Shown: positions 4,239 to 64,000 of the stretch, in pieces
Layout of the letters: each line of letters starts with the position of its first letter
Numbering within the stretch: position 1 is the stretch's first letter
NCBI GenBank assembly: GCA_973895155.1
Contig: OZ316893.1
Coordinates: 22,851,844 to 22,915,843 of the forward strand
Length of the DNA: 64,000 bases
DNA from: Marsupella aquatica
Lineage: Eukaryota; Plantae; Marchantiophyta
Reading direction: 5' to 3'
Made by a program: the position numbers and the translations under genes
The notes under the pieces: model-generated
Databases searched by the model: none
What the model was told of the DNA's origin: nothing
Seen by the model: the letters and a program-made list of their open reading frames with translations, nothing else

Positions 4239-6240
4239 TTAAAGTTCAAACTCCAGAAAAGCTACAGGAAAGTCGACCAAACAGTAGTAATCTTCTCTCG
4301 AATCTGATTTTTTGAGGCCAAGAGCTAAGCATCTTTCGGTATCCGTTTGCGCTCCGTCTATGTCCCCCAGTAAGAACTTCACATAGCCCCGGTGCTTCAA
4401 GCATTCATTGTCATCACCGCTCATTTCCAAGGCTACCGTTAGGTCTTCCAATGCTCCGTGGAGATTGCCTGCCATTCGCTGTAGTATTCCCCTTACTTTC
4501 ATGAAGAAAGCCCTATCATTGTAGTCACACACCCTGGCGTCGAAATCGTCCCAAATTGCAAGGGCTCCCAGAAATTCCTTCTCCTTCACTTTTTCTCTCA
4601 CTTTCGACAACGTGAAAAGATTTTCCTCCAATTGGTCCCATCCCTTCAGGCTGAACTCCAAAAATGCTACGGGCAATTGCACCACAGGATCCATTGCCAT
4701 ACATCTTTCTGCATCCTTTCGCGCTCCACCGTCATCCCCCATCAAATATTTGACATAACCCCGATGCTTGAGCAGCTCATAATCATCGTCGTCTATTTCC
4801 AAGGCTGCAGTCAGGTCTTCCAAAGCTCCATGGAGATCGCCTGCCATTTGCTTCAGTATTCCCCTTTCCTGCAAGAAGAAAACCCTATCATTATCGCCAC
4901 ACACTCTGGTGTTGAATTCGTCCCAAATTGCAAGGGCTCCCAGAAACTCCTTCTCCTTCACTTTCTCCATGACTTTCTCATGTGAGATGCTCCGAAGGTT
5001 TTCCTCACATTCTTCCCTTCCCTTCAGTCTGAACTCCAAAAATGCTACGGGCAATCCTCCCAAACAATCAGGCCCATCCACCACAGGATCCATTGCCATG
5101 CATCTTTCTGCATCCTTTCGCGCTCCACTATCATCCCCCATCAAGTATTTGACATAACCCCGATTCTTGAGCAACTCATAATTGTCGTCGTCGTCTATTT
5201 CAATGGCTGCAGTCAGGTCTTCCACAGCTCCATCGAGATCGCCAGCCATTCGCTTTAGTAACCCCCTTTCTTGTAAGAAACAAAGCCTATGATGATATCC
5301 ACCCACCCTGGCGTCGAAATCGTCCCATATTGCAAGGGCTCCCAAAAATTCCTTCTCCTTTACCTTCTCCATCACTTTCTCATGTGAGAAGCTCCAAAGA
5401 TTTTCCTCACATTGTACACTTCCGTTTAGTCTGAATTCCAAAAATGCTACGGACAATCCTCCTAAACAATTCGGATCCACCAAAGGGTCCATTGCCATGC
5501 ATCTTTTTCCATCCTTTCGCGCTCCACTGTCATCCCCCATCAAGTATTTGACATAACCCCGATGCTTGAGTAGCTCATAATTGTCGCCGACTATTTCCAA
5601 GGCTCCTGTCAGGTCTTCCAAAGCTCCATCGAGATCACCTGCTAACCGCTTCAATATTCCCCTTTCTTTCAAGAAATAAACCCGCACATATGGGGAATAC
5701 ACCCTGGCCTCAAAATCACACCAGCTTGCCAATGCCCCCTGGAAGTCTGAAACCTTCACCTTGCCCATCATTTCAGACTCTGCTGACCTCAATTGGTTCC
5801 AGTGCTCGTTGCGTTCTGTTTCTCCTGCCAGCCTGAAATCCATGTATGTTATTGTTTCTTTCCCGAAACCGGAGGCTTTAAAACGACCGCATGTGCGAAG
5901 AAGTCTTAAGGCATTTGCACCATCATCGTTTGCACTACCGAGATCCCCCAACAAGAAGTTCACGCAGCCTCGGTACCTCCAACACTCATACAGGCTGCGT
6001 TTCTCATGAAATTCTGCGTGATCAGATAATACTTCCGATGCGGCAGTGAGATCTTTCAAGGCTCCCTGGAGATCTCCCGCCTTACATCTCACTATGCCCC
6101 TCTCTTGCAACAAGAATCTCTGGGACCTTGATTCTACCACTTCGAGGTTTGCGGGACACATATCTGCCAGAGCTCCCTCATAGTCATATTCCGACACCTT
6201 CTCCATAGCACTTTTGTAGATGCTCGTGATGAGCCACTCT
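4239..6240 (-). repeat. Intragenic tandem array of ~390-400 bp units, each encoding about three TPR-like helical hairpins (5 units, the first divergent)
   Basis: Recurring EKVKEKEFLGALAIWDDFDARV / FLQERGILKRMAGDLxGALEDLTAALEI / YELLKHRGYVKYLMGDDSGARKDAERCMAMDP / VAFLEFRL. DNA-level near identity between units. Confidence 0.88.
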
Positions 6241-7538
6241 GTGTTTTTTATTTCGGACTCCTCACGAACCAAAGAGAAACCCTTATCCTGTACCTCAAAG
6301 ATCTTGCGTGATAAGGCTAGAGGGGCCGCACCAGCGTGTCCCAACCAAGTAGGCACTTCCTTGACGTATGGGAGGGCAGAGAGCTCCAAAGTGCGCAAAG
6401 ACTGCATACCTTTCATGAAGTCAGGAATGCTCCTTATAGAAAGCCCCGAAAGAACGAGATGAGTAAGCGCGGTTAGTTCGGCAAGAGACTTGGGCAGCTT
6501 CTTGATCGGAATAAGATTGGTCCTTCCAATGATTTCCAAGTTTTGTAACTGGGTGAGTTCACTAAAGGGAATCACTGAGAGGATATTCGGACCACAGTCT
6601 GTCAGCTCTAGGTGCCTCAATTTGGAGAGGTTCCCGAAGGACTTCGGAACGGTTTCAAAGGGATGTTTTGCCAACTTGAGGACTTCTAATGCTTCCATGT
6701 TTCTAAAGGAGTCGGGAAAGTGCGATTCGAGACAGTCACTGATTTCTAGATACTTCAAGGCAGACAGGTTTCCAAAGAAGTCGGGAAAGGTACGCAATCG
6801 GCCACAAGTACTGATTTCTAGGTGCTTCAATGCAGACAGGTTTCCAAACGAGTCGGGTAAGCCTTGCAATTGGTAACAATCTCGTATTTCTAGGTGCTTC
6901 AGGGCAGATAGGGATCCAAATGAATTAGATAGGGATAAGAGTCCCGTACAACCAGTGACCACAAGACGATCGAGTGCGGATAGACCCCCGAAGGTTTCAG
7001 GAAGGGAACGCAGCTCGCTGCACCGATCAAATTCAAGATCCTTTAACTTGGATAGAGCACCGAAATTCTCGGGCAGCATATGAAGAATCCGGCACCTGTT
7101 GAATTTTAGGTAGTTCAACTGGGATAGTTTGTAAAACGTCGCAGGTAAGCTTTCCATGTGGCAATAAATGAATTCCAAATGTTCCAACTGGGACAAATTG
7201 CCAAATTCATCCGGTACACTTTCCAAGTTTGAACCGATAAAGATTCTAAGAGCTGATAATTGTCCAATAGATCTGGGTAGGACTTCCACACAGTCTAGAT
7301 GCAAAACCACGAGACGGTCTTGAAGGGAAAAGTTGAAAGTATCAAGACATCCTTCCCATTTAAGTAGCACAAGCTTACTTGGGACTGAAATCTCTTCCAC
7401 ACCTCCATCCAAGAGAACCTGGGCATCAACTTCGAGGTACTGCAATTTCTTCAGTTTGTGATGGGTATGGCTTGAAATGTGAATTTCTTCGCTTGGGGAA
7501 GTACCCCAATATTTGGACAACCGCAAGGCAAAAATATC
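4239..7538 (-). CDS. NLR copy 1 exon 5: LRR domain (~7460-6340) fused to five TPR-like modules (~6240-4239)
   Basis: Uninterrupted 1095-aa ORF. About 24-aa plant-type LRRs are followed by ~130-aa repeats. Acceptor TGTAG|GAT lies 12 nt upstream of the listed ORF start. Confidence 0.92.
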   Translation of the reverse strand, partial: DIFALRLSKYWGTSPSEEIHISSHTHHKLKKLQYLEVDAQVLLDGGVEEISVPSKLVLLKWEGCLDTFNFSLQDRLVVLHLDCVEVLPRSIGQLSALRIFIGSNLESVPDEFGNLSQLEHLEFIYCHMESLPATFYKLSQLNYLKFNRCRILHMLPENFGALSKLKDLEFDRCSELRSLPETFGGLSALDRLVVTGCTGLLSLSNSFGSLSALKHLEIRDCYQLQGLPDSFGNLSALKHLEISTCGRLRTFPDFFGNLSALKYLEISDCLESHFPDSFRNMEALEVLKLAKHPFETVPKSFGNLSKLRHLELTDCGPNILSVIPFSELTQLQNLEIIGRTNLIPIKKLPKSLAELTALTHLVLSGLSIRSIPDFMKGMQSLRTLELSALPYVKEVPTWLGHAGAAPLALSRKIFEVQDKGFSLVREESEIKNTEWLITSIYKSAMEKVSEYDYEGALADMCPANLEVVESRSQRFLLQERGIVRCKAGDLQGALKDLTAASEVLSDHAEFHEKRSLYECWRYRGCVNFLLGDLGSANDDGANALRLLRTCGRFKASGFGKETITYMDFRLAGETERNEHWNQLRSAESEMMGKVKVSDFQGALASWCDFEARVYSPYVRVYFLKERGILKRLAGDLDGALEDLTGALEIVGDNYELLKHRGYVKYLMGDDSGARKDGKRCMAMDPLVDPNCLGGLSVAFLEFRLNGSVQCEENLWSFSHEKVMEKVKEKEFLGALAIWDDFDARVGGYHHRLCFLQERGLLKRMAGDLDGAVEDLTAAIEIDDDDNYELLKNRGYVKYLMGDDSGARKDAERCMAMDPVVDGPDCLGGLPVAFLEFRLKGREECEENLRSISHEKVMEKVKEKEFLGALAIWDEFNTRVCGDNDRVFFLQERGILKQMAGDLHGALEDLTAALEIDDDDYELLKHRGYVKYLMGDDGGARKDAERCMAMDPVVQLPVAFLEFSLKGWDQLEENLFTLSKVREKVKEKEFLGALAIWDDFDARVCDYNDRAFFMKVRGILQRMAGNLHGALEDLTVALEMSGDDNECLKHRGYVKFLLGDIDGAQTDTERCLALGLKKSDSREDYYCLVDFPVAFLEFEL

Positions 7539-10500
7539 CTACAATGTCATAATCAGCTCCCCAGTTAGTTCAATTCTCATCCAGTCAGCGCTAGTTCAGG
7601 ACGTCCAAAACATACAATTCACAGAAAGACTAGTGCAAACGCAACTAACTACTTGTCATTCCTGCAAACCCTCCTTTACGGCTTTGAGATACAATGCTTC
7701 GCAATGTTAGATGTGCCTCAAACGTTCGAATGGCACCTGTTCACCACAGAATTGTATCTCATCAACGTAGAGCGTACCTGATCTGCTAACTCTTCATTGT
7801 TTTCTAGTAGCTTTAAAGCCATTGTCTCATCCCATACTCTGCACCTGCCACTGTTCCTCTCAGAAGCTATCTTTCGTCCCAGACTGAGAAGTTGGTCATG
7901 TACCTTGATACTGTCATTCTCCTCCACATGATAAACAAGAGACCTGTCTACCAGGGTTTGCCACAGTAACGTCTCAAACTTGGTCCCATAAGCTTGCCTC
8001 CAAGCTGCTTTTGCCATGCGCAGTGACAACTCTTGCTTCCCATTATCCTCCGACTCACTAAAGAAAGTGGTCGCATCTAGGAACATTTCCTTGGCCACCT
8101 CGTTAAGGCCATCGTAGCTGACCCTCAACGTGGCCCACAACCTCTCTTCGAGATCTTCAACAGCCCCGGCCTCCTCCAAGGCTTCCAAAGTTTGCTTCCA
8201 GAATTCGTCATCCTCATTCAATGCTAAATAATTTCCAAGAACTTCAAGTGTGAGTGGCAGCCCACCGCACTTCTTCACTGTGGCCGTGATGGCAGGTGCC
8301 AATTCAAGCGGCACCATGGCCTGATTTGGGAAAGCATGGCTTAAGAAGAGCTCTTCGGCTAGCTTTGAGTCCAAAAATGGGACTGGATAAATTTCCCCCA
8401 AGCATTTACGAAGGTTCATACGACGAGATGTTATAATGAACCGACTTTGTGGAGAGGTACCATCCGCCAGTTCTGATAGAAGTGTGATATCACGGTCATC
8501 GTTGATGTCATCCACAACAAGGAGTAGTGTTTTTCCTATCAATGCAGACCAGTCCTCTGTGTCTTCAACCTTCTTTCCAAGGCGGTGCATATGTTGCCAC
8601 ACTATTTTCTTCACCCCTTGAGCATCATCCCCTTTTATCAACTTGATATTAGGGACAAAGCAACTGTACTCATATGCAGAACCTAGTTCATTAAAAACCG
8701 CCCTTGCAAGAGTGGTTTTCCCTAGCCCACCCATGCCCACCAAGCCCAGCGTTGTAAATTTCTGAAGCCGGCTTTTAACCTCCCGTACGAGAACGTCCAT
8801 ATTGACCAGTTGCTTTGGCAGACGTTCCAAGTTCTCACGAATAGCTGCCCTTTCAGCCAGGGCTTTCTCTTCCTATATATATTTCCAGCAATAGAGCGGG
8901 TTAGCAAAACTACAATCCTAATTCTTCGAACATGAATTTCGAGCATTCCGTGGAGAAGACAGGAAACAGGTTGTCACTGAAAAACGAAGACATGGTGCTG
9001 CGGTTGGATCAAATGCCTAGTCTAGTAACGCCCTACGCTAACGGTTTTAGTTAGGGAACCTTTGAATTGTCGCAAACGCTGCTAACGAGTGTTGTGAGGG
9101 CATTGAACCTTCTTGAGGTTTTCTTCTCTGGTCTGCACACGGAGAAATGGTCTGCGCTACTATCAAGATTGAAATTCACCCCATCTCTGGCAGAGGCTTC
9201 TGGTACTACAACAATACCTCGGAATATGCCCTGCATGACCACAGAAACGATGTCAAATTGATGTGCCGAAAAGGCAAATTGGACATCGCTTTACCACTGG
9301 TGAGTCTTCTACTCAATAACACTTCAATAGTTCAGAGACTCAAGGTACAGGCATTCATGTAAACTAGGAGATGTCTTGTACCCATATATTCATAAAAACA
9401 CAAACTCTACAAGGTAGATGAATATGCTTAGAAAAAATATTGAAGGTTTGTGCTTGGACGAGACTTCCCAGTTTAAGCTCATCCAGAACCACAGTGTCCA
9501 ATGTGCAATTGACCGGTCAAATGACTGGCCAAATTCATGACAAGACTTTCTACTATGTGAACCCACTAAAAGAAAGATAGATTATGAGATCATCTGGAAG
9601 GATAGCAGCTGTACCGTTTTCACGGGGAGCATTTCCCCCAATCCTTCGATTTTCCACTTTGGGTGACACGTGCACAAATTTTGGAAGTAGGAATTCAGCC
9701 GGCTCGTGTCTTTGCTTAGAGTGGTGAAGTAATCAAACAAAGGGCGGCTCAAGGCACTTCTTGCCCTTCCTATATCAGAACTGCCGTGATGAGGGGTACT
9801 ATAATAAAATACCCCTCTCAAGCTATCAAGGAATTTCTTTTTCTTGGCCGTATTCATGCTGGACTCGAACGTGTCGTGTGCATGATGACACAGTTCCTTG
9901 ATGACTAAACCCCCAAAAGAGTGGCCCACCAAGACCACTGGGCAGTGAGGCGTCTGACCAATGTTTGCCTGCATCAGATCACTGATCAAGTTTTCGCTAA
10001 TTATATGCATGTCAAAGTTTTCAGCAGAACCCTTTCTCAGGCCTTCAATATAAGAGACAACCAGGATGTGAGCGTCAGGGAACTCCTCCGCGAGCCAGAC
10101 CTTTGGCCAAATACAGCTTTCGTCCCCACTTATCCAGGTAGATAAGTGTGCTTCGGCGGATTCCCCGAATGGAAGCCCGTGGAAGAATAATACTTGTATG
10201 GCGGGATCACCCTTAGGCTTGTGAAGCTCGTAGAGGGAGTCATTCACCTGAGATATATCACGAAGACAGGGAGGCAAGTATTGATTAGTGGTCATCAGTC
10301 TTCATCTGGTTTCGACAGGACGCTACAATAGAAGAGAAACTCAGACATGTGAATATCAATTCTATGAGAAGCTTTCTCTGAGACCGACGGTTTGAGCAGT
10401 TTTGGATGGAATGTAAAACCAATCAACCCACTGAATGTCACTAAGGAGAGAGGGGGGACCGTATGGATGATCACCTCACGTGCTTGGAGATTCCATTCTT

Positions 10501-10648
10501 GCACCTTGCTGCGGCGTCGATTAGCTACAACGGGTCTGAGGAAGAAAAACCCAAGTAGACAGCACAAGATCACAATAGACAGTTGGGCTACTACTAGAAT
10601 CGGAGCAAATCTCGCCGAAATTACGGAAACCCAATTGATCGCCTCCAT
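4239..10648 (-). CDS. NLR copy 1 (intact): TM anchor - alpha/beta-hydrolase - NB-ARC - LRR - TPR array; exons 10648-10475, 10247-9615, 9230-9060, 8872-7778, 7538-4239; ~1790 aa
   Basis: Five collinear ORF segments join in frame through GT..AG introns (exon lengths 174, 633, 171, 1095, 3300 nt, all multiples of 3). The same splice sites recur in copies 2 and 3. Motifs: GHSFGG and ADHFSVCR (hydrolase), GMGGLGKTT, LLLVVDD, GLPL, VHD (NB-ARC), LPxxFGxLxxLxxLxIxxC (LRR), RGxxKxxxGDLxGALEDLTAALE (TPR). Confidence 0.9.
7778..8872 (-). CDS. NLR copy 1 exon 4: NB-ARC domain
   Basis: P-loop GMGGLGKTT, Walker B LLLVVDDI, RNBS-B SRFIITSR, GLPL motif CGGLPLTL, RNBS-D MFLDATTFF, MHD-equivalent VHDQLLSLGRKI. 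Confidence 0.93.
9060..9230 (-). CDS. NLR copy 1 exon 3: C-terminal part of the hydrolase with the putative catalytic His
   Basis: GIVVVPEASA...ADHFSVCRP resembles the IV..SA...DH..CK end of SERAC1-like hydrolases. The exon is 171 nt in all three copies (21692-21522, 44647-44477). Confidence 0.82.
9615..10247 (-). CDS. NLR copy 1 exon 2: alpha/beta-hydrolase (PGAP1/SERAC1/SesB-like), nucleophile-containing part
   Basis: VLFFHGL oxyanion motif, WPKVWLAEEFPDAHIL, GHSFGG nucleophile elbow, STPHHGS. Acceptor CTCAG|GTG and donor ACG|GTACAG. Confidence 0.88.
10475..10648 (-). CDS. NLR copy 1 exon 1: hydrophobic N-terminal transmembrane/signal anchor followed by a basic cluster
   Basis: MEAINWVSVISARFAPILVVAQLSIVILCCLLGFFFLRPVVANRRRSK...QARE, then donor GAG|GTGATC. 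Conserved in copies 2 (23437-23252) and 3 (45863-45678). Confidence 0.7.
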
Positions 10649-16472: not shown

Positions 16473-19400
16473 CTAAAGTTCCAACTCCAGAAAACCTAGA
16501 GGAAAATCTCCCAAACACTGGTGTTGGCTTCTTTGAGGCCCAGAGCCAAGCATCTTTCGGCATCTTTCTGCGCTCCGTCTGTGTCCCAAGTAAGAACTTG
16601 ATATAGCCCCGGTGCTTCAACCATTCATCACCGCTAATTTCCAAGGCTGCTGTTAAGTTTTCCCATGCTCCATGGAGTTCGCCTGCCATTCGCTTCAGTA
16701 TTCCCCGTTCTTGCAAGTAGAAAACCCTGTCATAATAGCTACACACCCTGGCGTCGAAATCGTCCCACATTGCAAGGGCTCCGACAAATTTCTTCTCCTC
16801 TACCTTCCCATGACACTAAAAGATTGTCCACCCATTTTTTCCTTCCCTTCAGTCTGAACTCCAAAAACGCTACGGGCGATGCTCCCAAACAATCTGGCCC
16901 ATCCATCACAGGATCCATTGCCATGGATCTTTCTGCATCCTTTCGCGCTCCACTGTCATCCCCCATCAAGTATTTGACATAACCCCGATTCTTGAGCAAC
17001 TCATAATTGTCGTCGTGGTCTATTTCAATGGCTGCATTCAAGTCTTCCAAAGCTCCATCGAGATCGCCTGCCATTCGCTTCAATAACCCCCTTTCTTGCA
17101 AGAAGGAAATATTATGATGATAGCCACCAACCCTGGCGTCGAAATAGTCCCAAATTGCAAGCGCTCCCCGCAATTCCTTCTCCTTTACCTACTCGATCAC
17201 TTTCTCATGTGAGTATCTCCAAAGATCTTGCTCCAATCCTTCACTTCCCTTCAGTCTGAATTCCAAAAATGCTACAGACAATCTTCCCGAACAACTATGC
17301 CAATCCACCACAGGATCCATTGCCATGCATCTTTCTGCATCCTCTCGCGCTCCTCTGTCATTTCCCATCAAGTATTTGACGTAACCCCGATGCTTGAGCA
17401 CCTCATAGTTGTCGTCGTCTATTTCGAAGGCTGTTGTCAGGTCTTCCAGAGCTCCATGGAGATCGCCTGCCATTTGCTTCAGTATTCCCCTTTCTTGCAA
17501 GAAAAAAACCCTATGATGATATCCACCCACGCTGCTGTCGAAATCGTCCCAAATTGCAAGGGCTCCCAGAAATTCCTTCTCCTTTACCTTCTCCATCTTT
17601 CTCATGTGAGAACCTCCAAAGATTTTCCTGAAATGGTCCACTTCCCTTCAGTCTGAATTCCATAAATGCTACGGACAATCCTCCCAAACAATCAGGCCAA
17701 TCCACCACAGGATCCATTGCCATGCATCTTTCTGCATCCTTTCGCGCTCCACTGGCATCCCCCATCAAGTATTTAACGTAACCCCGATGCTTGAGCAGCT
17801 CATAATAGTCGTCGTTTATTTCCAAGGCTGCTGTCAGGTCTTCCAGAGCTCCATGGAGATCGCCTGCCATTCGCTTCAATATTCCCCTTTCTTGCAAGAA
17901 ATAATCTCGACGATATTGGGAATACACCTCGGCATCAAAATCACGCCAGATTGCCAATGCACCCTGGAAGTCTGAAATCCTCACCTTGTCTATCATTTCA
18001 CAATGTACTGACCACAATTTTCTCGAGTGCTCATTGCGTTCTGTTTCTCCTGCCAGCCTAAAATTCATATATGTTATTGTTTCTTTCCGGAAACCCGAGG
18101 CGAGCCACTTAGAAGGACCGTCTGCGCGATCTGTGCGAAGAAGTCTTAAGGCATTTGCACCATCATCGTTTGCAGGACCGAGATCCCCCGACAAGAAGTT
18201 CACGTAGCCTCGGTACCTCCAACACTCATACAGGCTGCGGTACTCACGAGATTCTGCGTCATCAGATGATACTTCCAATGCGGCAGTGAGATCTTCCAAG
18301 GCTCCCTGGAGATCTCCCGTCTGACATCTCATTATGCCGCTCTCTTGCAACAAGAATTTATGCCACCTCGGTTTTACCATAGCGAGGTTTGCGCAACAAA
18401 TATCTTCCAGGGCTCCCTGATAGTCATGTTCCGACACCTTCTCCATCGCGTTTCCGTGGATTCTCGTCATGAGCCACTTTGACGGTATGATTTTGGAGTC
18501 CTCATGGGTCAAGGAGAAACGCTTATCTTGCACCTTAAAGATCTTCCGTGATGTGGCGAGAGGGGCCACACCAGCGTCTCCCAACCAAGCAGGCACATCC
18601 TTGACGTATGGGAGGACCGAGAGCTCCAAAGTGTGCAAACACTGCATAATCTTCCTGAAGTCAGGAATGCTCCTTAAAGAAAGCCGCGAAAGAACGAGAC
18701 GAGTAAGCGCCTTCAGTTTGGCAAGTGACTCGGGCAGCTTCTGAATCGGAATCAGACTGTTGTATCCACTGATTTCCAAGTTTTGTAACTGCGTGAGTTC
18801 GCCGAAGGGAATGACTGAGAGGATATTCGAACGACAATCTGTCAGCTCTAGGCGCCTCAAACTGGAGAGTTTTCCAAATGAATTCACCACGGCTTCTAAT
18901 TGACATCCTTGCAACTTGAGGTCTTCTAGTCCTTCTAGATGTCCAAAGGAGTTGGGGACTCGTAAGTCGCAAGAACTACGGACTTTTAGGTGCTTCAGGG
19001 CACATAGGTGTCCAAAGGAGTGGGGCAAAGCTTGCAGTTTGTGACAATCACTGATTTCTAGGTGCTTCAGAGCAGAAAGGTTTCCAAAGGACTCGGGCAG
19101 GCCACGGAAGTCGCCACAACGACGGATTTCTAGGTGGTTCAAGGCAAGCAGGTGTCCGAAGGAGTCGGGAAAGGCTTGCAATGCATACAAGTGTGTGATT
19201 TCTAGGTGTCTCAAGGCAGACAGGTTTCCGAAGGACTCCGGCAAGGCGCGACAACCACGGAGTTCTTTCCATTGGAAAGACCTCAACGAACGCGCATCAC
19301 GCCCTGCGTTCCCGGATTCGTGCGCACCATGGATTTCTAGGTGCGTCAAGGCAGACAGGTTCCAAATGAAGTACACAGGGAGTTGAGTCTCGGACAACCA

Positions 19401-22400
19401 TTGAACACAAGACGATCAAGTGCGGATAGATTGCCGAAGGTGTCAGGAAGGGAACGTAAGTCACCACACCACTCAAATGCAAGATCTTTCAACTTGGATA
19501 GAGCACCGAAATTTTCGGGCAGGATATGAAGAGTATGGCAGTCCATGAATTGCAGGTACTGCAACTGCGATAGTTTGCAAAACGTCTCAGGCAAACTCTT
19601 TAGATCGCAATCATTGAACTCCAAATGTTCCAACCGGAATAAATTGCCGAATTCATCCGGTACACAGTGCAAGTCTGAACCGATGAAGATTCTAAGAGCT
19701 GATAATTGTCCAATAGATCTGGGTAGGACCCCCACACCGTGAACATGCAAAACTACAAGACTATCTTGAAGGGCAAAGTTGAAAGTATCAAGACCTCCAC
19801 AGCATTTGAGTAGGACAAGCTTACTCGGGAATGACCTCTCTTCCTCAACTCCATCAATGAAAAGCGGGCCATCCACTTCCAGATACAGCAATTTCTTCAG
19901 TTTCTCAAGCATATGGGTTGAAACGTGAATATCTTCAGTTGAGGAAGCATCACTTGAGGAAGCATCACTTGTGGAAGCATCCCAATCGTTGGACAACCTC
20001 AAGGCATGAATATCCTACAATGTCATAATATACTCACCATTTAGTTCAGATCTCATCAAATCAGCCGCTAGTTGAGTCCAATACATACAAAATCGACTAC
20101 TCCAAACCCTGCTAAGTAATTGTCATTCCTGAAACCCTCCATTACTGCTTTGAGGTCAAATGCTTCGCAATGTTACATATGCCTCAAACATTGAAGCCCA
20201 AAACCAACTTGACACCTCCTCACTACAGAATTTTATCGCATCAATCTAGAGCTCACCTGATTCGCCAACTCCTCATCGTTTTGTAGTAGCTTTAAGGCCA
20301 TTCTCCTTTCCCATACTCTGCACCTTCCACTGTTACTCGGCTCAGAAGCTATTTTTCGTCCCAGACTTAGAAGTTGGTCATGTATCTCAATATTCTTATT
20401 GTCCTCCACATGAATAACAAGAGACCTGTCCACCAAGGTTTGCCATTGTATGGTCTCATACTGCGTCTCATAAGCTTTCCTCCAAGCTGCTTTTGCGTCG
20501 CGCAAACACCAAGAACGCCCTTGAAAGAAAGTTGTGGCATCTAGGAACATTTGCTGCTCCGTCCCTTCAAGTCCGTCGTAGCTCACTCTCAACTTTGCCC
20601 ACAATCTCTTGTCAAGATCTCGAATATTGTCAGCCCTTATCACAGCTTGCAAAGTTTGCTGCCAAAACTTGCGATCCTGTTCGAATTTGAGGTGCTTTCC
20701 AAGAACTACAAGAGTAAGGGGCAGCCCAGAACACTTCTCCACTATAGCCACCATATCACGTTTCAAGTTTGCGGGTAAATTTGCGGGCTGTGGGAAAGCA
20801 TGGCTTAGGAACAGCTTTTCTGAATCTTTTTGGTTCAAAAATGGGACTCTAAAAATATCAACATCGTCCACGCGCTTGAGAATGTCCCAATCACGAGATG
20901 TAACAATGAACCGACTTTGTGGAGAGGGACCATCAACGAGGTGTGACAAGACGGTTATTTCAAGATCATCACTGATATTATCCAAAACAAGTAGCAGTTG
21001 CTTGTTGTTCAAAGCAGACCAGTTCTCTTTGTCTTCAACCTTCCTTCCAAGGCGGTGCATATGTTTCCACACTACCTTCTTTACCTCCTCAATGCCCCCT
21101 CCTTTCACCTTCAGATCAGGGACAAAACACCTGTACTCGTATGCGGGACTTAGTTCATTGAATACCGCCCGTGCGAGAGTGGTTTTCCCAAGCCCACCCA
21201 TGCCCACCAAGCCCAGCGTTGTAAATTTCTGAAGCCTCCTTTTAACCTCTTGTACGAGAACGTCCACATTGACCATGTGCTTTGGCAGAAATTCCCGATT
21301 TTGACGAATAGCTTGCCTTTCAACCACGGCTCTTTCTTCCTAGATTTGCAACAAGAGCAGGTTAGAAAAACAGCAATCCTAAAGTTTTGATATGAATTTT
21401 GACCTTTCATTTGAGAAGACAGGACACAGGATGTCACTGGAAAACAAGGACATGCTGTTGTTGCATGAAATGACTCGTTAATTAAAGTAACGCCCTTCGC
21501 TGAAGTTTGTTTCTGGGAAACCTTTGAATTGTCGCAAACGCTGCTGAGGAGTGTTGTGAGGGCGTTGAACCTTCTGGAGGTTTTTGTCTCTGGTCTGCAA
21601 ACGGAGAAATGGTCCGCGCTACTATCAAGATTAAAATTCACCCCACCTCTGGCAGAGGCTTCTGGTACTACAACAATACCTCGGAATATGCCCTGCGTGA
21701 CCACAGAAACGATGTCAAATTGACACGAAAAGGCAAATTGGACATCGCTTTTTTTTCTTTCTTTTTCTTTTTCAAATAAAGGAGAAATCTCTGAAACCCC
21801 ACAGAAAGTAAATAGTTTTTCTTTTTTAAATAAAGGAGAAATTTATGAAACCACACAGAAAGGGACTAGTGAGACACAATATCAGTGTCTCTATTCAAGT
21901 GAGCTACCACAAAATCAAAATCATGTCTCTATGAGTTAATTGGACATTGCTTTAGCTTTACCACTGGTGACTTTAATAATACTTCAATAGTTCAGAGACT
22001 CAAGGTACACTCAAGGTACATGCATTTATGTCAACTGAGCTACCACAAAATCATGCTTCTATGAGCTAAATTGGACATGGCTTTAGCTTTACCACTGGTG
22101 AGTTTAATAATACCTCAATAGTTCAGAGACTCAAGGTACAGGCATTTATGTCAACTACGGTAGATGTCTTGTTCCCATATATTCATAAAGAAACAAACTC
22201 TACGAGGTAGATGAATATGTTTAGAAAAGATGATGAAGTTTGTGCTTGAACGAGACTTCCTAGTTTAAGCTCATCCAGAAACCACAAGTGCCGAATGTGC
22301 ATTTGACCCGTCAAACGACTGGCCAAATTCATGACAAGGCTTTCTACTATGTGAACCGACTAAAATAAAGATAGATTATGAGATCATCTACAAGGATAGC

Positions 22401-23437
22401 AGCTGTACCGTTTTCACAGGGAGCATTTCCCCCAATCCTTCGATTTTCCACTTTGGGTAACACGTGCACAGATTTTGGAAGTAGGAATTCAGCCGGCTCG
22501 TGTCTTTGCTTAAAGTGGTGAAGTAATCAAAGAAAGGGCGGCTCAAGACACTTCTTGCTCTTCCTATATCAGAACTGCCGTGATGAGGGGTACTATAGTA
22601 AAATACCCCTCTCAAGCTATCAAGGAATTTCTTAATCATGGCCGCATTCATGCTGGACTTGAATGTGTCGTGTGCATGATGACACAGTTCCTTTATGACC
22701 AAACCCCCAAAAGAGTGGCCCACCAAGACCACTGGGCAGTGAGGCGTCTGACCAATGTTTGCCTGCATCAGATCAGTGATCAAGTTTTCGCTAATTATAT
22801 GCATGTCAAAGTTTTCAGCAGAACCCTTTCTCAGGCCTTCAATATAAGAGACAACCAGGATGTGAGCGTCAGGGAACTCCTCCGCGAGCCAGACCTTCGG
22901 CCAAATACAGCTTTCGTCCCCACTCATCCAGGTAGATAAGTGTGCTTCGGCGGATTCCCCAAATGGAAGCCCGTGGAAGAATAATACTTGTATGGTGGGA
23001 TCCACCTTCGGCTTGTGAAGCTCGTGTCATTCACCTGCGATAGCACGAACACAGTAGGGCAAGTACTGATTATTGGTTCATCCTACCTGATCTGGTTTCG
23101 ACAGAACGCTACAATAGAACAGAAACTCAGACAAATTAATATCAATTTCAGGAAAGCTTTCTCTGACGTTGACGGTTCCAGCAGTTCAGGACGGCGTGTA
23201 AAAATAGTCAATCCATAGACGAGAGAGACAAGAGACCGTATGGAAGATCACCTGACGAGCTTGCAAATTCCATTGTTGCACCCTTCTGCGGCGTCGATTA
23301 GCCACAACGGGTCGGAGCAAGAAAAAGCCAAGTAGACAGCACAAGATCACAATAGACAGTTGGCCTACTTCGTCAGTCGCCACTAGAATCGGAGCAAATA
23401 TCGCCGAGATTACGGAAACCCAATTGATCGCCTCCAT
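16473..23437 (-). pseudogene. NLR copy 2, same architecture, disabled; exons 23437-23252, 23034-22409, 21692-21522, 21339-20257, 20014-16473
   Basis: 7-nt deletion at the start of exon 2 (~23025; GTGAATGAC[TCCCTCT]ACGAG), 1-nt deletion in the LRR (~19360), 2-nt deletion at ~17597, in-frame TAG at 17189-17191, and further deletions near 16810 and 16580. Confidence 0.85.
21900..22160. repeat. ~135-bp tandem duplication expanding intron 2 of NLR copy 2
   Basis: gagctaccacaaaatc...gctttagctttaccactggtga...ttcagagactcaaggtaca occurs twice. Confidence 0.7.
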
Positions 23438-39690: not shown

Positions 39691-42600
39691 TTAAAGTTCA
39701 AACTCCAGAAAAGCTACCGGAAACTGGACCAAATAGTAGTAATAATCTTCTCTCGAATCTGCTTTTTTGAGGCCCAGAGCTAAGCGTCTTTCGGCGTCCT
39801 TTTGAGCTCCATCTATGTCCCCCAGTAAGAACTTGACATAGCCCCGGTGCTTCAAACATTCATAGTCATCAGCGCTAATTTCCAAGGCTCTTGTCAGGTC
39901 TTCCAATGCTCCTTGGAGATTGCCTGCCATTCGCTGTAGTATCCCGCTTACTTGCAAGAAGAAAACCCTATCATTGTAGCCACACACGCTGGCGTCAAAA
40001 TCGTCCCAAACTGCAAGGGCTCCCAGAAATTCCTTCTCCTTAACTTTTTCTTTGATTTTCTTATGTGACGACGTGAAAAGGCTTTCCACCCAATGGTCCC
40101 TTTCTTTCAGTCTGAAAAATGCCAAGGGCAATTGCACCACAGGATCCATTGCCATGCATCTTTCTGCATCCTGTCGCGCTCCACTGTCATCCCCCATCAA
40201 GTATTTGACATAACCCCGATGCTTGAGCAGATCATAATCGTCGTCGTCTATTTCCAAGGCTGCTGTCAGGTCTTCCAAAGCTCCTTGGATATCTCCTGCC
40301 ATTCGCTTCAGTATTCCCCTTTCTTTCAGGAAGAAACGACTATCATGACAGCCACACACGCTGGCATCGAATTCATCCCAAATTGCAAGGGCTCCTAGGA
40401 ATTCCTTCTCCTCTACCTTATCCATGACTCTCCCATGTGACAACCTGAAAAGATTTCCCACCGAATGCTGCCTCCCCTTCAGTCTGAATTCCAAAAATGC
40501 TACGGGCAATCCTCCCAAACAGTTCTGCCCATCCACCTTAGGCTCCATCGCCATACATCTTTCTGCATCCCTTTGCGCTCCACTCTTATCCCCCATCAAG
40601 TATTTCACGTAACCCCGATGCTTAAGCAGCTCATAATTGTTGTCGTCTGTTTCCAAGGCAGCTGTCAGGTCTTCCAAGGCTCCATCGAGATCACCTGCCA
40701 TTCGCTTCAATAAACCCCTTTCTTTCAAGAAGAAAACCCTATGATGATAGCCACCAACCCTGGCGTCGAAATCGTCCCAAATTGCAAGGGCTCCCAGAAA
40801 TTCCTTCTCCTCTACCTTCTCCATAACTTTCTCATGTGAGGAGCTCCAAAGATGTCCCTCAACAGCTTCACTTCCCTTCAGTCTGAATTCCATAAATGCT
40901 ACGGACAATCCTCCCAAACAATCATACATCCCACGCTCCACAGCATCCATTGCCATGCATCTTTCTGCATCCTCTCGCGCTCCACTCTTATCCCCCATCA
41001 AGTATTTGACGTAACCCCGATGCTTTGAGCAGCTTATAGTTGTCGTCTATTTCGAAGGCTGTTGTCAGGTCTTCCAGAGCTCCATGGAGATCGCCTACGA
41101 TTCGCTTCAATATTCCCCTTTCTTGCAAGAAATAAACCCGCGAACATTGGGAATACACCGTGACATCAAAATCACACCAGATTGCCAATGCCCCCTGGAA
41201 GTCTGAAATCCTCACCTTGTCCATCATTTCACAATGTGCTGAGCACAAATTTGTCGAGTGCTCATTGCGTTCTGTTTTTCCTGCCAGCCTGAAATCCATG
41301 TATGTTACTGTTTCTTTCCCAAAACCGAAGGGGAGCCACCCAATAGGACCGTCTGCGCGATCTGTGCGAAGAAGTCTTAAGGCATTTGCACCATCATCAT
41401 TTGCACGACCGAGATCCCCCAACAAGAAGTTCACGTAGCCTCGGTAACTCCAACACTCATACAGGCTGCGGTACTCACGAGATTCTGCGTCATCAGATGA
41501 TACTTCCAATGCGGCAGTGAGATCTTCCAAGGCTCCCTGGAGATCTCCCATATGACATCTCATTATGCCGCTCGCTTGCAACAACAATTTATGCCACCTC
41601 GGTTTTAGCATAGCGAGGTTTGCGCAACAAATATCTTCCAGGGCTCCCTGATAGTCATGTTCCGACACCTTCTCCATCGCATTTTCGTGCATGAAGATCA
41701 TGAGCGCCTCTAACAGTATGATGTTGTCCTCATGGGCCAAGGAGAAACGCTTATCTTGCACCTTAAAGATCTTCTTTGATGTGGCGAGAGTGGCCACACC
41801 AGCGTCTCCCAACCAGGCAGGTAATTCCTGGACGTATGGGAGGACAGAGAGCTCCAAAGTGCTCAAAGACTGCATACTCTTCATGAAGTCAGGAATGCTT
41901 CTTATAGAAAGCCCCCGAAGAACGAGACTAGTAAGCGCCGTCAGTTCGGCAAGAGACTCGGGCAGCATCTTGATCGGGATAAGAGTTCTCTCTCCAATGA
42001 TTTCCAAGTTAAGTAACTGGGTGAGTTCGCCGAAGGGAATGACTGAGAGGATATTCGAACGACAATTGGTCAGCTCTAGGTGCCTCAAACTGGAGAGTTT
42101 TCCGAATGAATTCACAACAGCTTCCAATTGACATCCTTGCAACTTGAGGTCTTCTAATCCTTCTAGATGTCCAAAGGAGTCGGGGACTCGTAAGTCGCAA
42201 AAACTACGGATTTCTAGGTGCTTCAGGGCAAGCAGGTGTCCAAAGGAGTGGGGCAAAGCTTGCAGTTTGTTACAATCAGTGATTTCTAAGTGCTTCAAGG
42301 CAGACAGGTGTCCAAAGGAATCGGACAAGACTTGCAATTCGTGACAACGATGAATTTCTAGGTGCGTCAAGGCAGCCAGGGTTCCAAATGAAGTAGACAG
42401 GGAGTTGAGTCTCGGACAACCATTGAACACAAGACGATCGAGTGCGGATAGATTGCCGAAGGTGTCAGGAAGGGAACGTAAGTCACCACACCTCTCAAAT
42501 GCAAGATCTTTCAACTTGGATAGAGCACCGAACTTTTCGGGCAGGATATGAAGACGATGGCAGTACATGAATTTCAAGTACTGCAACTGCGATAGTTTGC

Positions 42601-45600
42601 AAAACGTCTCAGGCAAACTCTTTAGATCGCAATCATATAACACCAAATGTTCCAACTGGGATAAATTGCCGAATTCAGCCGGTACACAGTGCAAGATTGT
42701 ACCGATAAAGATTCTAAGAGCTGATAATTGTCCAATAGATCTGGGTAGGACCTCCACACCGTGCAGTCGCAAAACTACGAGACTACCTTGAAGGGCAAAG
42801 TTGAAAGTATCAAGACGCCCACTGCATTTGAGTAGGACAAGCTTACTCGGGAATGACCTCTCTTCCTCAACTCCGTCAATGAACAGCGGGCCATCCATTT
42901 CCAGATACAGCAATTTCTTCAGTTTCTTAAGCGTATGGCTTGGAATGTGAATATCTTCACTTGAGGAAGCATCACTTGTGGAAGCATCCCAATGGCTGGA
43001 CAACCGCAAGGCATGAATATCCTACAATGTCATAATATCCTCACCATTTAGTTCAGATCTCATCAAATCAGCGCTAGTTGAGTCCAATACATACAAACGA
43101 CTACTGCAAACCCAGCTAACTAATTGTCATTCCTGAAACCCTCCCTTACTGCTTTGAGATAAAATGCTTTGCAATGTTACATATGCCTCAAACATTTGAA
43201 GCCCAGAACAAACTTGACACCTCCTCACTACAGAATTTTATCTCATCAATCTAGAGCTCACCTGATTCGCCAACTCCTCATTGTTTTGTAGTAGCTTAAA
43301 GGCAATTCTCCCATCCCATACTCTGCACCTGCCACTGTTACTTGGCTCAGAAGCTATTTTTCGTCCCAGACTTAGAAGTTGGTCATGTATCTTAATACTC
43401 TCATTCTCCTCAACATGATAAACAAGAGACCTGTCCACCAAGGTTTGCCATTGTATGGTCTCATACTGTGTCTCATAAGCTTTCCTCCAAGCTGCTTTTG
43501 CATCGCGCAAACACCAAGAATACCCTTGAAAGAAAGTTGTGGCATAGGAACATTTGCTGCTCCACCTCGTCAAGTCCGTCGTAGCTCACTCTCAACTTTG
43601 CCCACAATCTCTTGTCAAGATCTCGAATATTGTCAGCCTTTATCACAGCTTGCAAAGTTTGCTGCCAAAACTTGCGATCCTGTCCGAATTTGAGGTGCTT
43701 TCCAAGAACTTCAAGCGTAAGGGGCAGCCCAGAACACTTCTCCACTATAGCCACCATATCATGTTTCAAGTTTGCGGATAAATTTGCGGGCTGTGGGAAA
43801 GCATGGCTTAGGAACAGCTTTTCTGAATCTTTTTGGTTCAAAAATGGGAGTTTAAAAATATCAACATCGTCCACGCGCTTGAGAATGTCCCAATCACGAG
43901 ATGTAACAATGAACCGACTTTGTGGAGAGGGACCATCAACGAGGTGTGATAACACGGTTATATCAAGATCATCAATGATATTATCCAAAACAAGTAGCAG
44001 TTGCTTGTCCTTCAAAGCAGACCAGTTCTCTTCGTCTTCATCCTTCCTTCCAAGGCGGTGCATATGTTTCCACACTACAGTCTTTACCTCAAAAACACCC
44101 CCTCCTTTCACCTCCAGATCAGGGACAAAACAACTGTACTCGTATGCGGGACTTAGTTCATTGAATACCGCCCGTGCGAGAGTGGTTTTCCCAAGCCCAC
44201 CCATGCCCACCAAGCCCAGCGTTGGAAATTTCTGAAGCCTGCTTTTAACCTCCTGTACGAGAACGTCCATATTGACCAGTTGCTTTGGCAGAAATTCCCG
44301 ATTTTGACGAATAGCTTGCCTTTCAACCACGGCTCTTTCTTCCTAGATTTGCAACAAGAGCAGGTTAGAAAAACTGCAATCCTAAAGTCCTTTGATATGA
44401 ATTTTGACCTTTCAGTTGAGAAGACAGGACACAGGATGTCACTGGAAAACAAGGACATGCTGTAGTTCTGGGCAACCTTTGAATTGTCGCAAACGCTGCT
44501 GAGGAGTGTTGTGAGGGCGTTGAACCTTCGGGAGGTTTTAGTCTCTGGTCTGCACACGGAGAAATGGTCTGCGCTACTATCAAGATTAAAATTCACCCCA
44601 TCTCTGGCAGAGCCTTCTGGTACTACAACAATACCCCGGAATACGCCCTGCATGACCACAGAAACGATGTCAAATTGATGTACCAAAAAGGCAAATTGGA
44701 AAAGTTGGCAAATTGGCACCAGACACCACAGTGCCCAATGTTCAATTGACCCGTCAAATGACTGGCCAAATTCATGACAAGACTTGCTACTAAGCGAACC
44801 GACTAAAAGAAAGATAGCCGATTAGGAAATCATCTGGAAGGACAGCAGCTGTACCGTTTTCACAGGGAGCATTTCCCCCAATCCTTCGATTTTCCACTTT
44901 GGGTAACACGTGCACAAATTTTGGAAGTAGGAATTCAGCCGGCTCGTGTCTTTGCTTAGAGTGGTGAAGTAATCAAACAAAGGGCGGCTCAAGGCACTTC
45001 TTGCTCTTCCTATATCAGAACTGCCGTGATGAGGGGTACTATAATAAAATACCCCTCTCAAGCTATCAAGGAAATTCTTTTTCTTGGCCGCATTCATGCT
45101 GGACTCAAATGTGTAGTGTGCATGATGACACAGGTCCTTGATGACCAAACCCCCAAAAGAGTGGCCCACCAAGACCACTGGGCAATGAGGCGTCTGACCA
45201 ATGTTTGCCTGCATCAGATCACTGATCAAGTTTTCGCTAATTATATGCATGTCAAAGTTTTCAGCAGAACCCTTTCTCAGGCCTTCAATATAAGAGACAA
45301 CCAGGATGTGAGCGTCAGGGAACTCCTCCGCGAGCCAAACCTTCGGCCAAATACAGCTTTCGTCCCCACTTATCCAGGTAGATAAGTGTGCTTCGGCGGA
45401 TTCCCCAAATGGAAGCCCGTGGAAGAATAATACTTGTATGGCGGGATCACCCTTAGGCTTGTGAAGCTCGTAGAGGGAGTCATTCACCTGAGATATCACG
45501 AACACAGGAAGGCAAGTATTGATTAGTGGTCATCACTCTTCATCTGGTTTCGACAGGAAGCTACAATAGAAGAGAAACTCAGACATGTGAATATCAATTG

Positions 45601-45863
45601 TATGAGAAGCTTTCTCTGAAACCAATCAACCAACTGAATGTCACTAAGGAGAGATGAGGGACCGTATGGATGATCACCTCACATGCTTGGAGATTCCATT
45701 GTTGCACCTTGCTGCGGCGTCGATTAGCTACAACGGGTCTGAGGAAGAATAAGCCAAGTAGACAGCACAAGATCACAATAGACAGTTGGGCTACTTCGTC
45801 AGTCGCCACTAGAATCGGAGCAAATCTCGCCGAAATTACGGAAACCCAATTGATTGCCTCCAT
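39691..45863 (-). pseudogene. NLR copy 3, same architecture, two frameshifts; exons 45863-45678, 45487-44855, 44647-44477, 44342-43262, 43021-39691
   Basis: 2-nt deletion in RNBS-D (~43545, ggcataggaa versus ggcatctaggaa in copy 2) and an extra T in the TPR array (~41025, tgctttgagc versus tgcttgagc). Otherwise open, so sequencing error cannot be excluded. Confidence 0.78.
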
Positions 45864-63069: not shown

Positions 63070-64000
63070 TTAAAGTTCAAACTCCAGAAAAGCCACAGGA
63101 AATTCTCCCAAACAGCCGTAATGTGGTTCTTTGAGGCCCAGAGCCAAGCATCTTTCAGCATCTTTTCGCGCTCCGTCTATGTCCTCCAGTAAGAACTTCA
63201 CATAGCCCCGGTGCTTCAAGCATTGATAGTCATCACCGCTGATTTCCAAGGCTGCTGTTAGGTCTTCCAATGCTCCATGGAGTTCGCCTGCCATTCGCTT
63301 CAGTATTTCCCGTTCTTGCAAGACGAAAACCCTCTTATAATAGCCACACACACTGGCGCCGAAATCGTCCCACATTGCAAGGGCTCCCACAAATTCCTTC
63401 TCGTCTACCTTCTTCATGACTCTCTCATGTGAAAACATGGAAATCTTGTCTACCAATTGTTCCCTTCCCTTCAGTCTGAATTCCAAAAATGCTACGGGCA
63501 ATCCTCCCAAACAATTGCCCCCATGCACCACAGGATCCATGGCCATGCATCTTTCTGCATCCTTTCGCGCTCCACTTTTATCCCCCATCAAGTATTTGAC
63601 GTAACCCCGATGCTTGAGCAGCTCATAATTGTTGTCGTCTGTTTCCAAGGCTGCTGTTGTCAGGTCTTCCAAAGCTCCATCGAGATCGCCTGCCATTCGC
63701 TTCAGTAACCCCCTTTCTTGCAAGAAGAAAACTCTATGATGATAGCCACCAACCCTGGCGTCGAAATCGTCCCAAATTGCAAGGGCTCCCAGAAATTCCT
63801 TCTCCTTTACCTTCTCGATCACTGTCTCATGTGAGGAACTCCAAAGATCTTCCTCAAATCCTTCACTTCCCTTCAGTCTGAATTCCAAAAATGCTACAGA
63901 CAATTCTCCCAAACAATAAAACCTATCCACCACGTACAGGATCCATTGCCATGCATCTTTCTGCATCCTCTCGCGCTCCTCTGTCATTTCCCATCAAGTA
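63070..64000 (-). pseudogene. NLR copy 4, 3' TPR array only (gene continues beyond the window); 4-nt insertion frameshift near 63935
   Basis: Same TPR modules ending FPVAFLEFEL*. The sequence ccaccacGTACaggatcc, versus ccaccacaggatcc in other units, breaks the frame. Confidence 0.72.

What the first reader, a model, noticed from the sequence alone, without database searches (positions are those of the whole stretch)
4239..10648. NLR with a double sensor: TM - alpha/beta-hydrolase - NB-ARC - LRR - TPR x5 modules
Seen: one spliceable ~1790-aa frame containing all five parts, repeated in four tandem paralogs. Established: hydrolase-NB-LRR receptors occur in liverworts; plant NLRs normally end in an LRR; TPR-ended STAND proteins (plant TIR-NB-ARC-TPR, fungal and bacterial NLR-like proteins) carry TPRs instead of LRRs. 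Here a full LRR is followed by ~650 aa of TPR-like repeats in the same exon, so two different superstructure-forming repeat domains sit in series behind an enzymatic effector. Inference: a possibly undescribed NLR subclass in which the TPR array is a second ligand sensor or a large integrated domain and the output is lipase/esterase activity at a membrane. I cannot confirm novelty without a search.
Basis: partly seen in the sequence, partly recalled or inferred. Interest (0 to 1): 0.9.

Follow-up and report, generated by a model that had tools for sequence, protein, structure and literature searches.

The report
Liverwort immune receptor with extra TPR
This is a likely liverwort immune-receptor gene of the known hydrolase-NLR class that carries five extra TPR domains behind a complete LRR, a cassette shared with unrelated liverwort proteins that likely serves as a second sensing surface.

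Summary
Observation confirmed. Five minus-strand exons with four phase-0 GT-AG introns give one open 1790-aa frame: hydrophobic helix, alpha/beta-hydrolase (Ser168, His297), NB-ARC, about 17 LRRs with their C-cap, then five ~125-aa three-TPR modules in the LRR exon. Calypogeia fissa CAM6121861.1 aligns over 1529 aa at 52.6%, across all four junctions; two more C. fissa proteins share the architecture. No RNA run was found.

It belongs to the known liverwort hydrolase-NLR (HNL) class by domains, intron pattern and NB-ARC tree. Only this copy is open; paralogs 2 and 3, and the visible end of 4, are frameshifted.

The TPR module is a distinct liverwort family. It also ends ARM-repeat and NB-ARC-ARM proteins. 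LRR-linked copies form one clade (100/100) yet sit on two separate HNL lineages (AU p=5.5e-7), so the block likely moved by recombination. The module next to the LRR diversifies (omega 1.98, p=0.04 uncorrected) while the hydrolase is conserved (0.23), which favours a co-sensor role.

LRR followed by TPR is not unprecedented: two moss TIR-NB-LRR-TPR models are in a 2016 supplement. I found no description of the hydrolase version. New variant of a known kind.

The parts
4239..10648 (-). Gene 1: five-exon, 1790-aa TM-hydrolase-NB-ARC-LRR-(3TPR module)x5 NLR, open frame
   Evidence: 52.6% identity over 1529 aa to C. fissa CAM6121861.1 (P0002)
10475..10648 (-). Exon 1 (58 aa) with a hydrophobic segment at residues 17-37 (10600-10538) followed by basic residues; predicted signal anchor
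   Evidence: the donor GAG|GTGATC gives AREVNDSLYEL, identical to P0002
9615..10247 (-). Exon 2: alpha/beta-hydrolase core (SERAC1/PGAP1-like); nucleophile elbow GHSFGG with Ser168 at 9920-9918
9060..9230 (-). Exon 3: hydrolase C-terminal part, conserved His297 in ADHF (9149-9147)
   Evidence: (His in 81 of 84 aligned homologs)
7778..8872 (-). Exon 4: NB-ARC with intact P-loop GMGGLGKT (8737-8714), Walker B LLVVDD, GLPL and VHD (7903-7895)
6270..7538 (-). LRR solenoid of about 17 repeats ending in the HNL C-cap beta-hairpin (FEVQDKGF)
5829..6230 (-). TPR module 1 (LRR-proximal, most divergent; omega 1.98 among paralogs)
4242..5789 (-). TPR modules 2-5, each three TPRs plus a conserved tail LGxxPVxFLxFxL; modules 2-4 are close to each other in the module tree
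16473..23437 (-). Paralog g2: same five exons and five modules; broken by several frameshifts and an in-frame stop
39691..45863 (-). Paralog g3: same five exons and five modules; 2-bp deletion near 43545 and 1-bp insertion near 41026
63070..64000 (-). 3' end of paralog g4 (last two full modules and part of a third; frame change near 63930); the rest is outside the window

Best explanation
This is a hydrolase-NLR immune receptor gene, likely from a liverwort, whose complete LRR is followed by five copies of a liverwort three-TPR module that likely acts as an added sensing surface beside the LRR. Shown: the domain order, the intact NB-ARC motifs and hydrolase Ser/His, the same architecture in Calypogeia fissa, and the same module at the C-terminus of liverwort ARM-repeat and NB-ARC-ARM proteins. 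Inferred history: the module was joined once behind an LRR cap, duplicated, and then moved with the last LRR between two HNL lineages by recombination inside the LRR. Inferred mechanism: the receptor would rest ADP-bound. A pathogen protein would bind the LRR concave face together with the variable first TPR module, as C-JID does in ROQ1 and RPP1, or the TPR would act as a decoy for host ARM-TPR proteins. Nucleotide exchange would then oligomerise the NB-ARC. The clustered hydrolases, held at a membrane by the N-terminal helix, would cleave lipid esters and trigger cell death.
For: HNL identity: the intron pattern matches Xue 2012 (one intron in the hydrolase, one between hydrolase and NBS, both phase 0, one after the NBS), and the NB-ARC nests among liverwort HNLs. 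The closest solved NB-ARC-LRR structures to the family profile are ROQ1 and RPP1. Two Marchantia hydrolase domains cause cell death in N. benthamiana (PMC11218826 section 8). Module family: 25 of 239 matching held proteins score 93-173 bits and the rest at most 55 (9 of the 25 helped build the profile); all 23 named ones are liverwort. LRR-linked modules form one clade, 100/100. Their NB-ARCs are rejected as one clade, AU p=5.5e-7. The LRR end follows the TPR block while the LRR start follows the NB-ARC clade. Selection among the three paralogs: omega 0.23 hydrolase, 0.57 NB-ARC, 0.86 LRR, 1.98 TPR1 (p=0.042 against 1), 1.36 TPR2; LRR concave positions variable in 29 of 55 against 132 of 370 elsewhere, p=0.017. 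TPR domains occur among effector targets and integrated domains (PMC4759884).
Against: No transcript, ligand or activity data. The omega result rests on three sequences, two of them broken genes, in a region that looks mosaic (dS from 0.09 to 0.50 between regions), and p=0.042 does not survive correction for six tests. Groove-side residues of TPR2 and TPR3 and the tail are conserved across LRR- and ARM-linked copies (24-29 of 32 at seven groove positions), which fits a fixed partner or a structural cap better than a variable sensor. The nucleophile Ser is replaced in 29 of 76 scored hydrolase domains (21 Gly, 7 Cys, 1 Asp), so catalysis may not be the class output. The acid of the triad is not identified (Glu263, Glu280 and Asp296 are candidates). 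The direction of module capture rests on a weakly resolved root (39/87). Marchantia MpNBS-LRR8 has the same LRR cap and a faint remnant, so an old fusion followed by losses is also possible.
Confidence: 0.55

Rival explanations
1. The TPR block is a regulatory or docking module, not a sensor. It binds a fixed host partner (for example an ARM-TPR or NB-ARC-ARM-TPR protein, or a downstream component), or folds back to keep the receptor off, while the LRR alone senses.
For: The same module ends several unrelated STAND and ARM proteins of three liverwort genera. Its TPR2-TPR3 groove residues (Q5, E6, R12; E2, K5, H6, Y9) and tail are conserved in 24-29 of 32 copies. The fold matches co-chaperone-type three-TPR domains (UNC-45 Z 14.2, RPAP3 13.8, CHIP 13.4).
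Against: The Hsp70/90 carboxylate clamp is absent: clamp positions are H/M, E, E, H instead of K/N, N, K, R (clamp positions recalled). Module 1 diversifies among paralogs. Copy number varies from 2 to at least 5, which a one-to-one dock would not need.
Confidence: 0.27
2. The TPR block is a largely neutral passenger, captured by recombination and expanded by unequal crossing-over in an unstable NLR cluster, with no essential role.
For: Only 2 of 97 hydrolase-NB-ARC search hits carry the module, and one of them is the ARM type. Two of the three full copies in the window are broken. Omega for TPR2 is not different from 1.
Against: The block is kept in frame with conserved motifs between this species and C. 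fissa (43-47% identity) and on two distant HNL lineages. Pairwise omega for modules 3-5 is 0.18-0.51 (these modules are hard to align).
Confidence: 0.1
3. The five parts are not on one protein: alternative polyadenylation or splicing yields hydrolase-only, NB-LRR-only or TPR-only products.
For: No transcript was seen. Several C. fissa models are fragments (P0001, P0039, P0207, P0269), and MpNBS-LRR8 is annotated without a hydrolase.
Against: LRR and TPR share one stop-free exon. All introns are canonical, phase 0 and conserved in paralogs. Three C. fissa models carry the full set, and one matches across all four junctions. RACE showed joined HNL transcripts in Marchantia (PMC3352924).
Confidence: 0.08

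Closest known systems
Hydrolase-NBS-LRR (HNL / Hyd-NLR) class of liverworts (Xue 2012, PMC3352924; Chia 2024, PMC11218826)
   Same: N-terminal alpha/beta-hydrolase, TIR-related NB-ARC, LRR, and the three class intron positions (two phase 0).
   Different: An extra 5' exon with a hydrophobic anchor, and about 660 aa of TPR modules after the LRR cap. Neither paper's main text mentions TPRs on HNLs; the Chia 2024 supplement could not be read.
NLRs with integrated domains, including Physcomitrella TIR-NB-ARC-LRR-TPR models Phpat.022G003500 and Phpat.026G055100 (Sarris 2016 supplement, PMC4759884)
   Same: TPR repeats C-terminal to a full NB-ARC-LRR.
   Different: TIR rather than hydrolase output. 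Whether the moss TPRs are the same module was not tested; no moss protein appeared in the module searches.
TIR-NLRs ROQ1 and RPP1 with a post-LRR C-JID domain
   Same: Best solved matches for the NB-ARC-LRR profile; a folded domain after the LRR. That C-JID contacts the effector together with the LRR is recalled knowledge.
   Different: The post-LRR part here is helical TPR, repeated five times; the output domain is a hydrolase.
CC-NB-ARM proteins (rice RLS1) and their liverwort relatives
   Same: Liverwort NB-ARC-ARM and ARM-only proteins end in the same TPR module (for example CAM6088866.1, Mp3g10370).
   Different: Their NB-ARC is a separate clade and their main repeat is ARM. The RLS1 paper's text has no TPR mention.
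TIR-NB-ARC-TPR (TNP) and fungal or bacterial NB-TPR proteins
   Same: STAND NTPase with C-terminal TPRs.
   Different: There the TPRs replace the LRR; here they follow a complete, capped LRR.

Membership tests
HNL (Hyd-NLR) | N-terminal alpha/beta-hydrolase domain | tested here: met
   Weak Pfam Abhydrolase_6/PGAP1 hits below cut-off. GHSFGG elbow and DH motif shared with Marchantia, Riccia and Calypogeia homologs.
HNL (Hyd-NLR) | NB-ARC falling in the liverwort HNL group near TIR-type NB-ARCs | tested here: met
   Nested among Calypogeia, Marchantia and Riccia HNL-type sequences.
HNL (Hyd-NLR) | C-terminal LRR after the NB-ARC | tested here: met
   Pfam LRR_14 E 2e-35; AlphaFold solenoid with C-cap.
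HNL (Hyd-NLR) | Three conserved introns: within the hydrolase and between hydrolase and NBS (both phase 0), and after the NBS | tested here: met
   Paper section read; gene model. Exact codon positions were not compared with Marchantia genes.
HNL (Hyd-NLR) | Hydrolase domain triggers cell death | not testable with these tools
   Shown only for two Marchantia domains.
NLR with integrated domain (NLR-ID) | Non-canonical domain fused to an otherwise complete NLR | tested here: met
   The TPR block starts after the LRR cap that ends TPR-less HNLs such as P0105, P0106 and P0114.
NLR with integrated domain (NLR-ID) | The domain has homologs in other host proteins | tested here: met
   Same module in ARM-TPR and NB-ARC-ARM-TPR proteins of Marchantia, Riccia and Calypogeia.
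NLR with integrated domain (NLR-ID) | The integrated domain binds or is modified by a pathogen effector | not testable with these tools
   Only an indirect selection signal.
TIR-NB-ARC-TPR (TNP) | TIR N-terminus, and TPRs in place of an LRR | tested here: not met
   Hydrolase N-terminus and a full LRR.
Hsp70/Hsp90 co-chaperone TPR domains | Three-TPR fold with a capping element | tested here: met
   Model pLDDT 87.8, pTM 0.83; Z 13-14 to UNC-45, RPAP3 and CHIP, in the range common for helical repeats.
Hsp70/Hsp90 co-chaperone TPR domains | Carboxylate clamp (K, N, N, K, R) | tested here: not met
   Equivalent columns are mostly H, M, E, E, H in 32 modules; register checked against Tom70 and CTPR alignments; clamp definition recalled.

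The most novel reading that the evidence does not exclude
Liverworts have a lineage-specific, self-capped three-TPR cassette that has been shuffled onto the C-termini of different STAND receptors (hydrolase-NB-LRR, hydrolase-NB-ARM, helical-bundle-NB-ARM). In HNLs it was amplified into a copy-number-variable, diversifying second sensor in series with the LRR, driving a membrane-anchored lipid hydrolase resistosome. This would be an undescribed dual-sensor NLR subclass, with a testable degenerate relative (MpNBS-LRR8) and donor family (Mp3g10370) in Marchantia polymorpha.
Probability: 0.35. Interest if true: 0.8.

Novelty: new variant of a known kind. Interest (0 to 1): 0.6.

Why it matters
No ligand or activation mechanism turned up in my searches for any bryophyte hydrolase-NLR, and Chia 2024 states that pathogen-induced NLR immunity has not yet been shown in non-flowering plants. 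An HNL with a discrete, swappable, diversifying C-terminal cassette gives a bait for finding an effector and a handle for domain-swap tests. The cassette also links HNLs to NB-ARM proteins, which shows exchange of both output and sensor modules between distant plant STAND clades. This is the kind of modularity described mainly for fungal and bacterial NLRs.

Tried and rejected
No whole genome is held for this window. The RNA run search listed no RNA holder. The four runs laid cover the introns and show no splice joints, so they are DNA and say nothing on expression. A read check of the g3 frameshifts gave no answer, so they may be real or assembly errors. My first models used an exon-3 start at 9272 and an exon-1 donor at 10460 (1805 and 1795 aa). 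Both were replaced by better sites matching C. fissa; residue numbers are 5 higher than in the final model. The idea that the tail plugs the TPR groove was not established. The core-plus-tail complex job gave no verdict (score 0.02, alignment not used), which is no evidence either way. The structural alignments place the tail where a capping helix lies. The profile search of 1.84 billion representatives was swamped by generic TPR arrays: 5 of the 150 listed were module-family proteins, so it cannot show absence in mosses, ferns or seed plants. ESM Atlas gave only generic TPR clusters. The hydrolase exon had no PDB sequence match at E<=1. Earlier scan findings: nothing returned. Eleven other window ORFs and two longer ORFs had no Pfam hit. 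Literature searches without a description of Hyd-NB-LRR-TPR or of the module: (0 papers for LRR-TPR, NB-LRR-TPR or ARM-TPR together with NLR). The library lacks most subscription papers, the Chia 2024 supplement was unreadable, and bioRxiv supplements are closed; these could list this architecture.
Full report
1. Observation. The region holds a five-exon gene on the minus strand: 10648-10475, 10247-9615, 9230-9060, 8872-7778 and 7538-4239. All introns are GT-AG and phase 0, and the spliced frame is 1790 aa with one terminal stop. Pfam gives weak hydrolase hits below cut-off for exon 2, NB-ARC for exon 4 (E 9e-25), and both LRR and TPR families for the single 1099-aa ORF of exon 5. A hydrophobic segment at residues 17-37 (Kyte-Doolittle 2.78) is followed by basic residues, the pattern of a signal anchor with a cytosolic C-terminus (inference). 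Motifs are intact: GHS168FGG, ADH297F, P-loop GMGGLGKT, LLVVDD, GLPL and VHD. The TPR region is five ~125-aa modules. Contigs of two public DNA runs bridge the LRR-TPR junction and no exon indel is listed, so a chimeric assembly is unlikely, although one run may be the source sample. No RNA run was found.

2. Paralogs. Two more full-length copies (23437-16473 and 45863-39691) keep all splice sites and five modules each, but both are frameshifted; g2 also has an in-frame stop. Only the 3' end of a fourth copy is in the window, with a frame change near 63930. So the cluster is real, but only gene 1 is open. I could not test whether the g3 and g4 breaks are assembly errors.

3. Relatives. A search with the TPR region returned 31 proteins; the four best are Calypogeia fissa models. 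CAM6121861.1 (P0002) aligns over residues 1-1529 at 52.6% and runs across all four predicted junctions, with AREVNDSLYEL identical. CAM6123361.1 and CAM6103613.1 also have hydrolase, NB-ARC, LRR and TPR. These are gene predictions, not transcripts. The close relatives are liverwort proteins, so the window is probably from a liverwort (inference). A search with the hydrolase-NB-ARC part returned 97 proteins from Calypogeia, Riccia, Marchantia, Ceratodon and angiosperm TNLs. Only 2 of the 97 carry the module: P0002 itself and an ARM-type protein. That search scored a limited candidate set and missed P0004 and P0036, so it undercounts.

4. Class. Xue 2012 (PMC3352924; passages and section 8 read) defines HNLs by a hydrolase, an NBS, an LRR and three introns, two of them phase 0; gene 1 has these plus one more intron after the anchor exon. 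Its NB-ARC nests among liverwort HNL sequences. ROQ1 and RPP1 are the best solved matches to the family profile. Chia 2024 (PMC11218826; passages and section 8 read) showed cell death from two Marchantia hydrolase domains in N. benthamiana, with no catalytic test reported in that section. The nucleophile position is Ser in 47 of 76 scored hydrolase domains, Gly in 21, Cys in 7 and Asp in 1; 14 of 90 were not scorable. An N-terminal hydrophobic segment was found in 6 of 69 scorable N-termini, so the anchor is optional.

5. The TPR module. A profile of the module splits held proteins sharply: 25 of 239 matching proteins score 93-173 bits per domain, and the rest at most 55 (9 of the 25 contributed to the profile). 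The 24 database members are 17 C. fissa, 2 Riccia sorocarpa, 4 Marchantia and 1 unnamed metagenome fragment. Outside HNLs the module is the extreme C-terminus of ARM-repeat proteins (Mp3g10370, R1sor_007921, R1sor_013078), of NB-ARC-ARM proteins, and of two hydrolase-NB-ARC-ARM proteins of C. fissa. Pfam ARM hits were seen for seven of these; I grouped the others with them by their NB-ARC clade or, for the three not in that tree, by overall resemblance. AlphaFold models one module as six helices plus an ordered non-helical tail (pLDDT 87.8, pTM 0.83). The fold is a three-TPR domain like those of UNC-45, RPAP3 and CHIP, with the tail aligned where the capping helix lies (Z 13-14 is ordinary for helical repeats). 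In the whole-exon model the LRR is confident and ends in a beta-hairpin. The modules fold separately, and the links between them have pLDDT under 50. That hairpin is the normal end of TPR-less HNLs, so the block was added behind a complete LRR. The Hsp70/90 clamp is absent (clamp positions recalled).

6. History. All 22 LRR-linked or fragment modules form one clade (100/100); ARM-linked modules lie outside it with a weak root. The NB-ARCs of the LRR-TPR proteins fall in two separate HNL clades, and forcing them together is rejected (AU p=5.5e-7; 50 of 106 rows used; the group was defined by architecture, after a first FastTree tree had been seen). The last LRR and cap of gene 1 best match the other TPR-bearing proteins, while the LRR start matches its NB-ARC neighbours. 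The simplest reading is one capture followed by transfer of the LRR-end-plus-TPR block by recombination. Against a recent origin: Marchantia MpNBS-LRR8 has the same LRR end and a faint helical remnant that scores 15.9 bits, above all 2000 shuffles (maximum 8.9) and 94 other C-termini. An old fusion with decay is therefore possible.

7. Selection. Among the three paralogs, omega is 0.23 for the hydrolase, 0.57 for NB-ARC, 0.86 for the LRR, 1.98 for TPR module 1 (p=0.042 against 1) and 1.36 for module 2 (p=0.35). LRR concave positions vary in 29 of 55 sites against 132 of 370 elsewhere (p=0.017). Variation in module 1 clusters in its first helix pair, next to the LRR. This is suggestive only: three sequences, two of them broken, mosaic dS, and no survival of correction for six tests.

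8. Mechanism. Most likely (0.55) the LRR and the proximal TPR module sense together, or the TPR is a decoy for host ARM-TPR proteins. Activation would oligomerise the NB-ARC and cluster a membrane-held hydrolase that cleaves lipid esters and kills the cell. All of these steps are inferred. Rivals are a fixed docking or autoinhibitory module (0.27), a neutral passenger (0.10) and split products (0.08).

9. Novelty. HNLs are known, and TPR after NB-ARC-LRR is catalogued: Sarris 2016 (PMC4759884; passages and supplementary tables searched, four of its files not searched) lists two Physcomitrella TIR-NB-ARC-LRR-TPR models. Andolfo 2019 (PMC7145615), the fern NLR paper (PMC12512272), RefPlantNLR (PMC8559963), the RLS1 paper (PMC10030324), a 2023 review (PMC10952240), the Marchantia pangenome (PMC11906373) and the Chia preprint (10.1101/2022.10.19.512840) were read as passages. 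None of the passages describes TPRs on hydrolase-NLRs or on NB-ARM proteins. Nine library searches found no such description. The Chia 2024 supplement could not be read and subscription papers are mostly missing. Verdict: a real, conserved, apparently undescribed variant of a known class. The more original point is the shuffled liverwort TPR cassette rather than the series of two repeats. Interest 0.6.

Noticed in passing
P0012, P0016 (C. fissa CAM6088866.1, CAM6129886.1): Hydrolase-NB-ARC-ARM-TPR proteins: an HNL-type hydrolase (52-58% identical to this gene's exon 2) on an NB-ARC from the separate ARM clade, which suggests that output domains also move between clades.
   Followed up: partly
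P0172 (MpNBS-LRR8, MARPO_0044s0064), residues 976-1179: Same LRR cap followed by a faint two-copy helical remnant resembling module 1; annotated without a hydrolase.
   Followed up: partly
Riccia HNL proteins among P0139-P0173: A large group has Gly in place of the nucleophile Ser (GHGFGG) while mostly keeping the His; these are probably pseudo-hydrolases (21 of 76 scored).
   Followed up: no
window 9060-10648 versus 7778-8872: Hydrolase exons are 94-98% identical among the paralogs while the NB-ARC of gene 1 is only 77-78% identical to g2 and g3, which suggests gene conversion or exon exchange in the cluster.
   Followed up: partly
window 30648-30806 and 35600-36683: Degenerate tandem arrays of 17-19 and 35-37 bp units with strong strand skew, between g2 and g3.
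   Followed up: no
window 50604-51584 (+) and 52833-53768 (-): ORFs of 326 and 311 codons with no Pfam hit; the first lies in a T-rich, biased stretch. Possibly transposon-derived.
   Followed up: partly
P0100, P0120, P0121 and several Ceratodon hits: Other hydrolase-type NLR hits carry a ZZ zinc finger, and P0100 has an additional P-loop region, showing further domain gains in this class.
   Followed up: no
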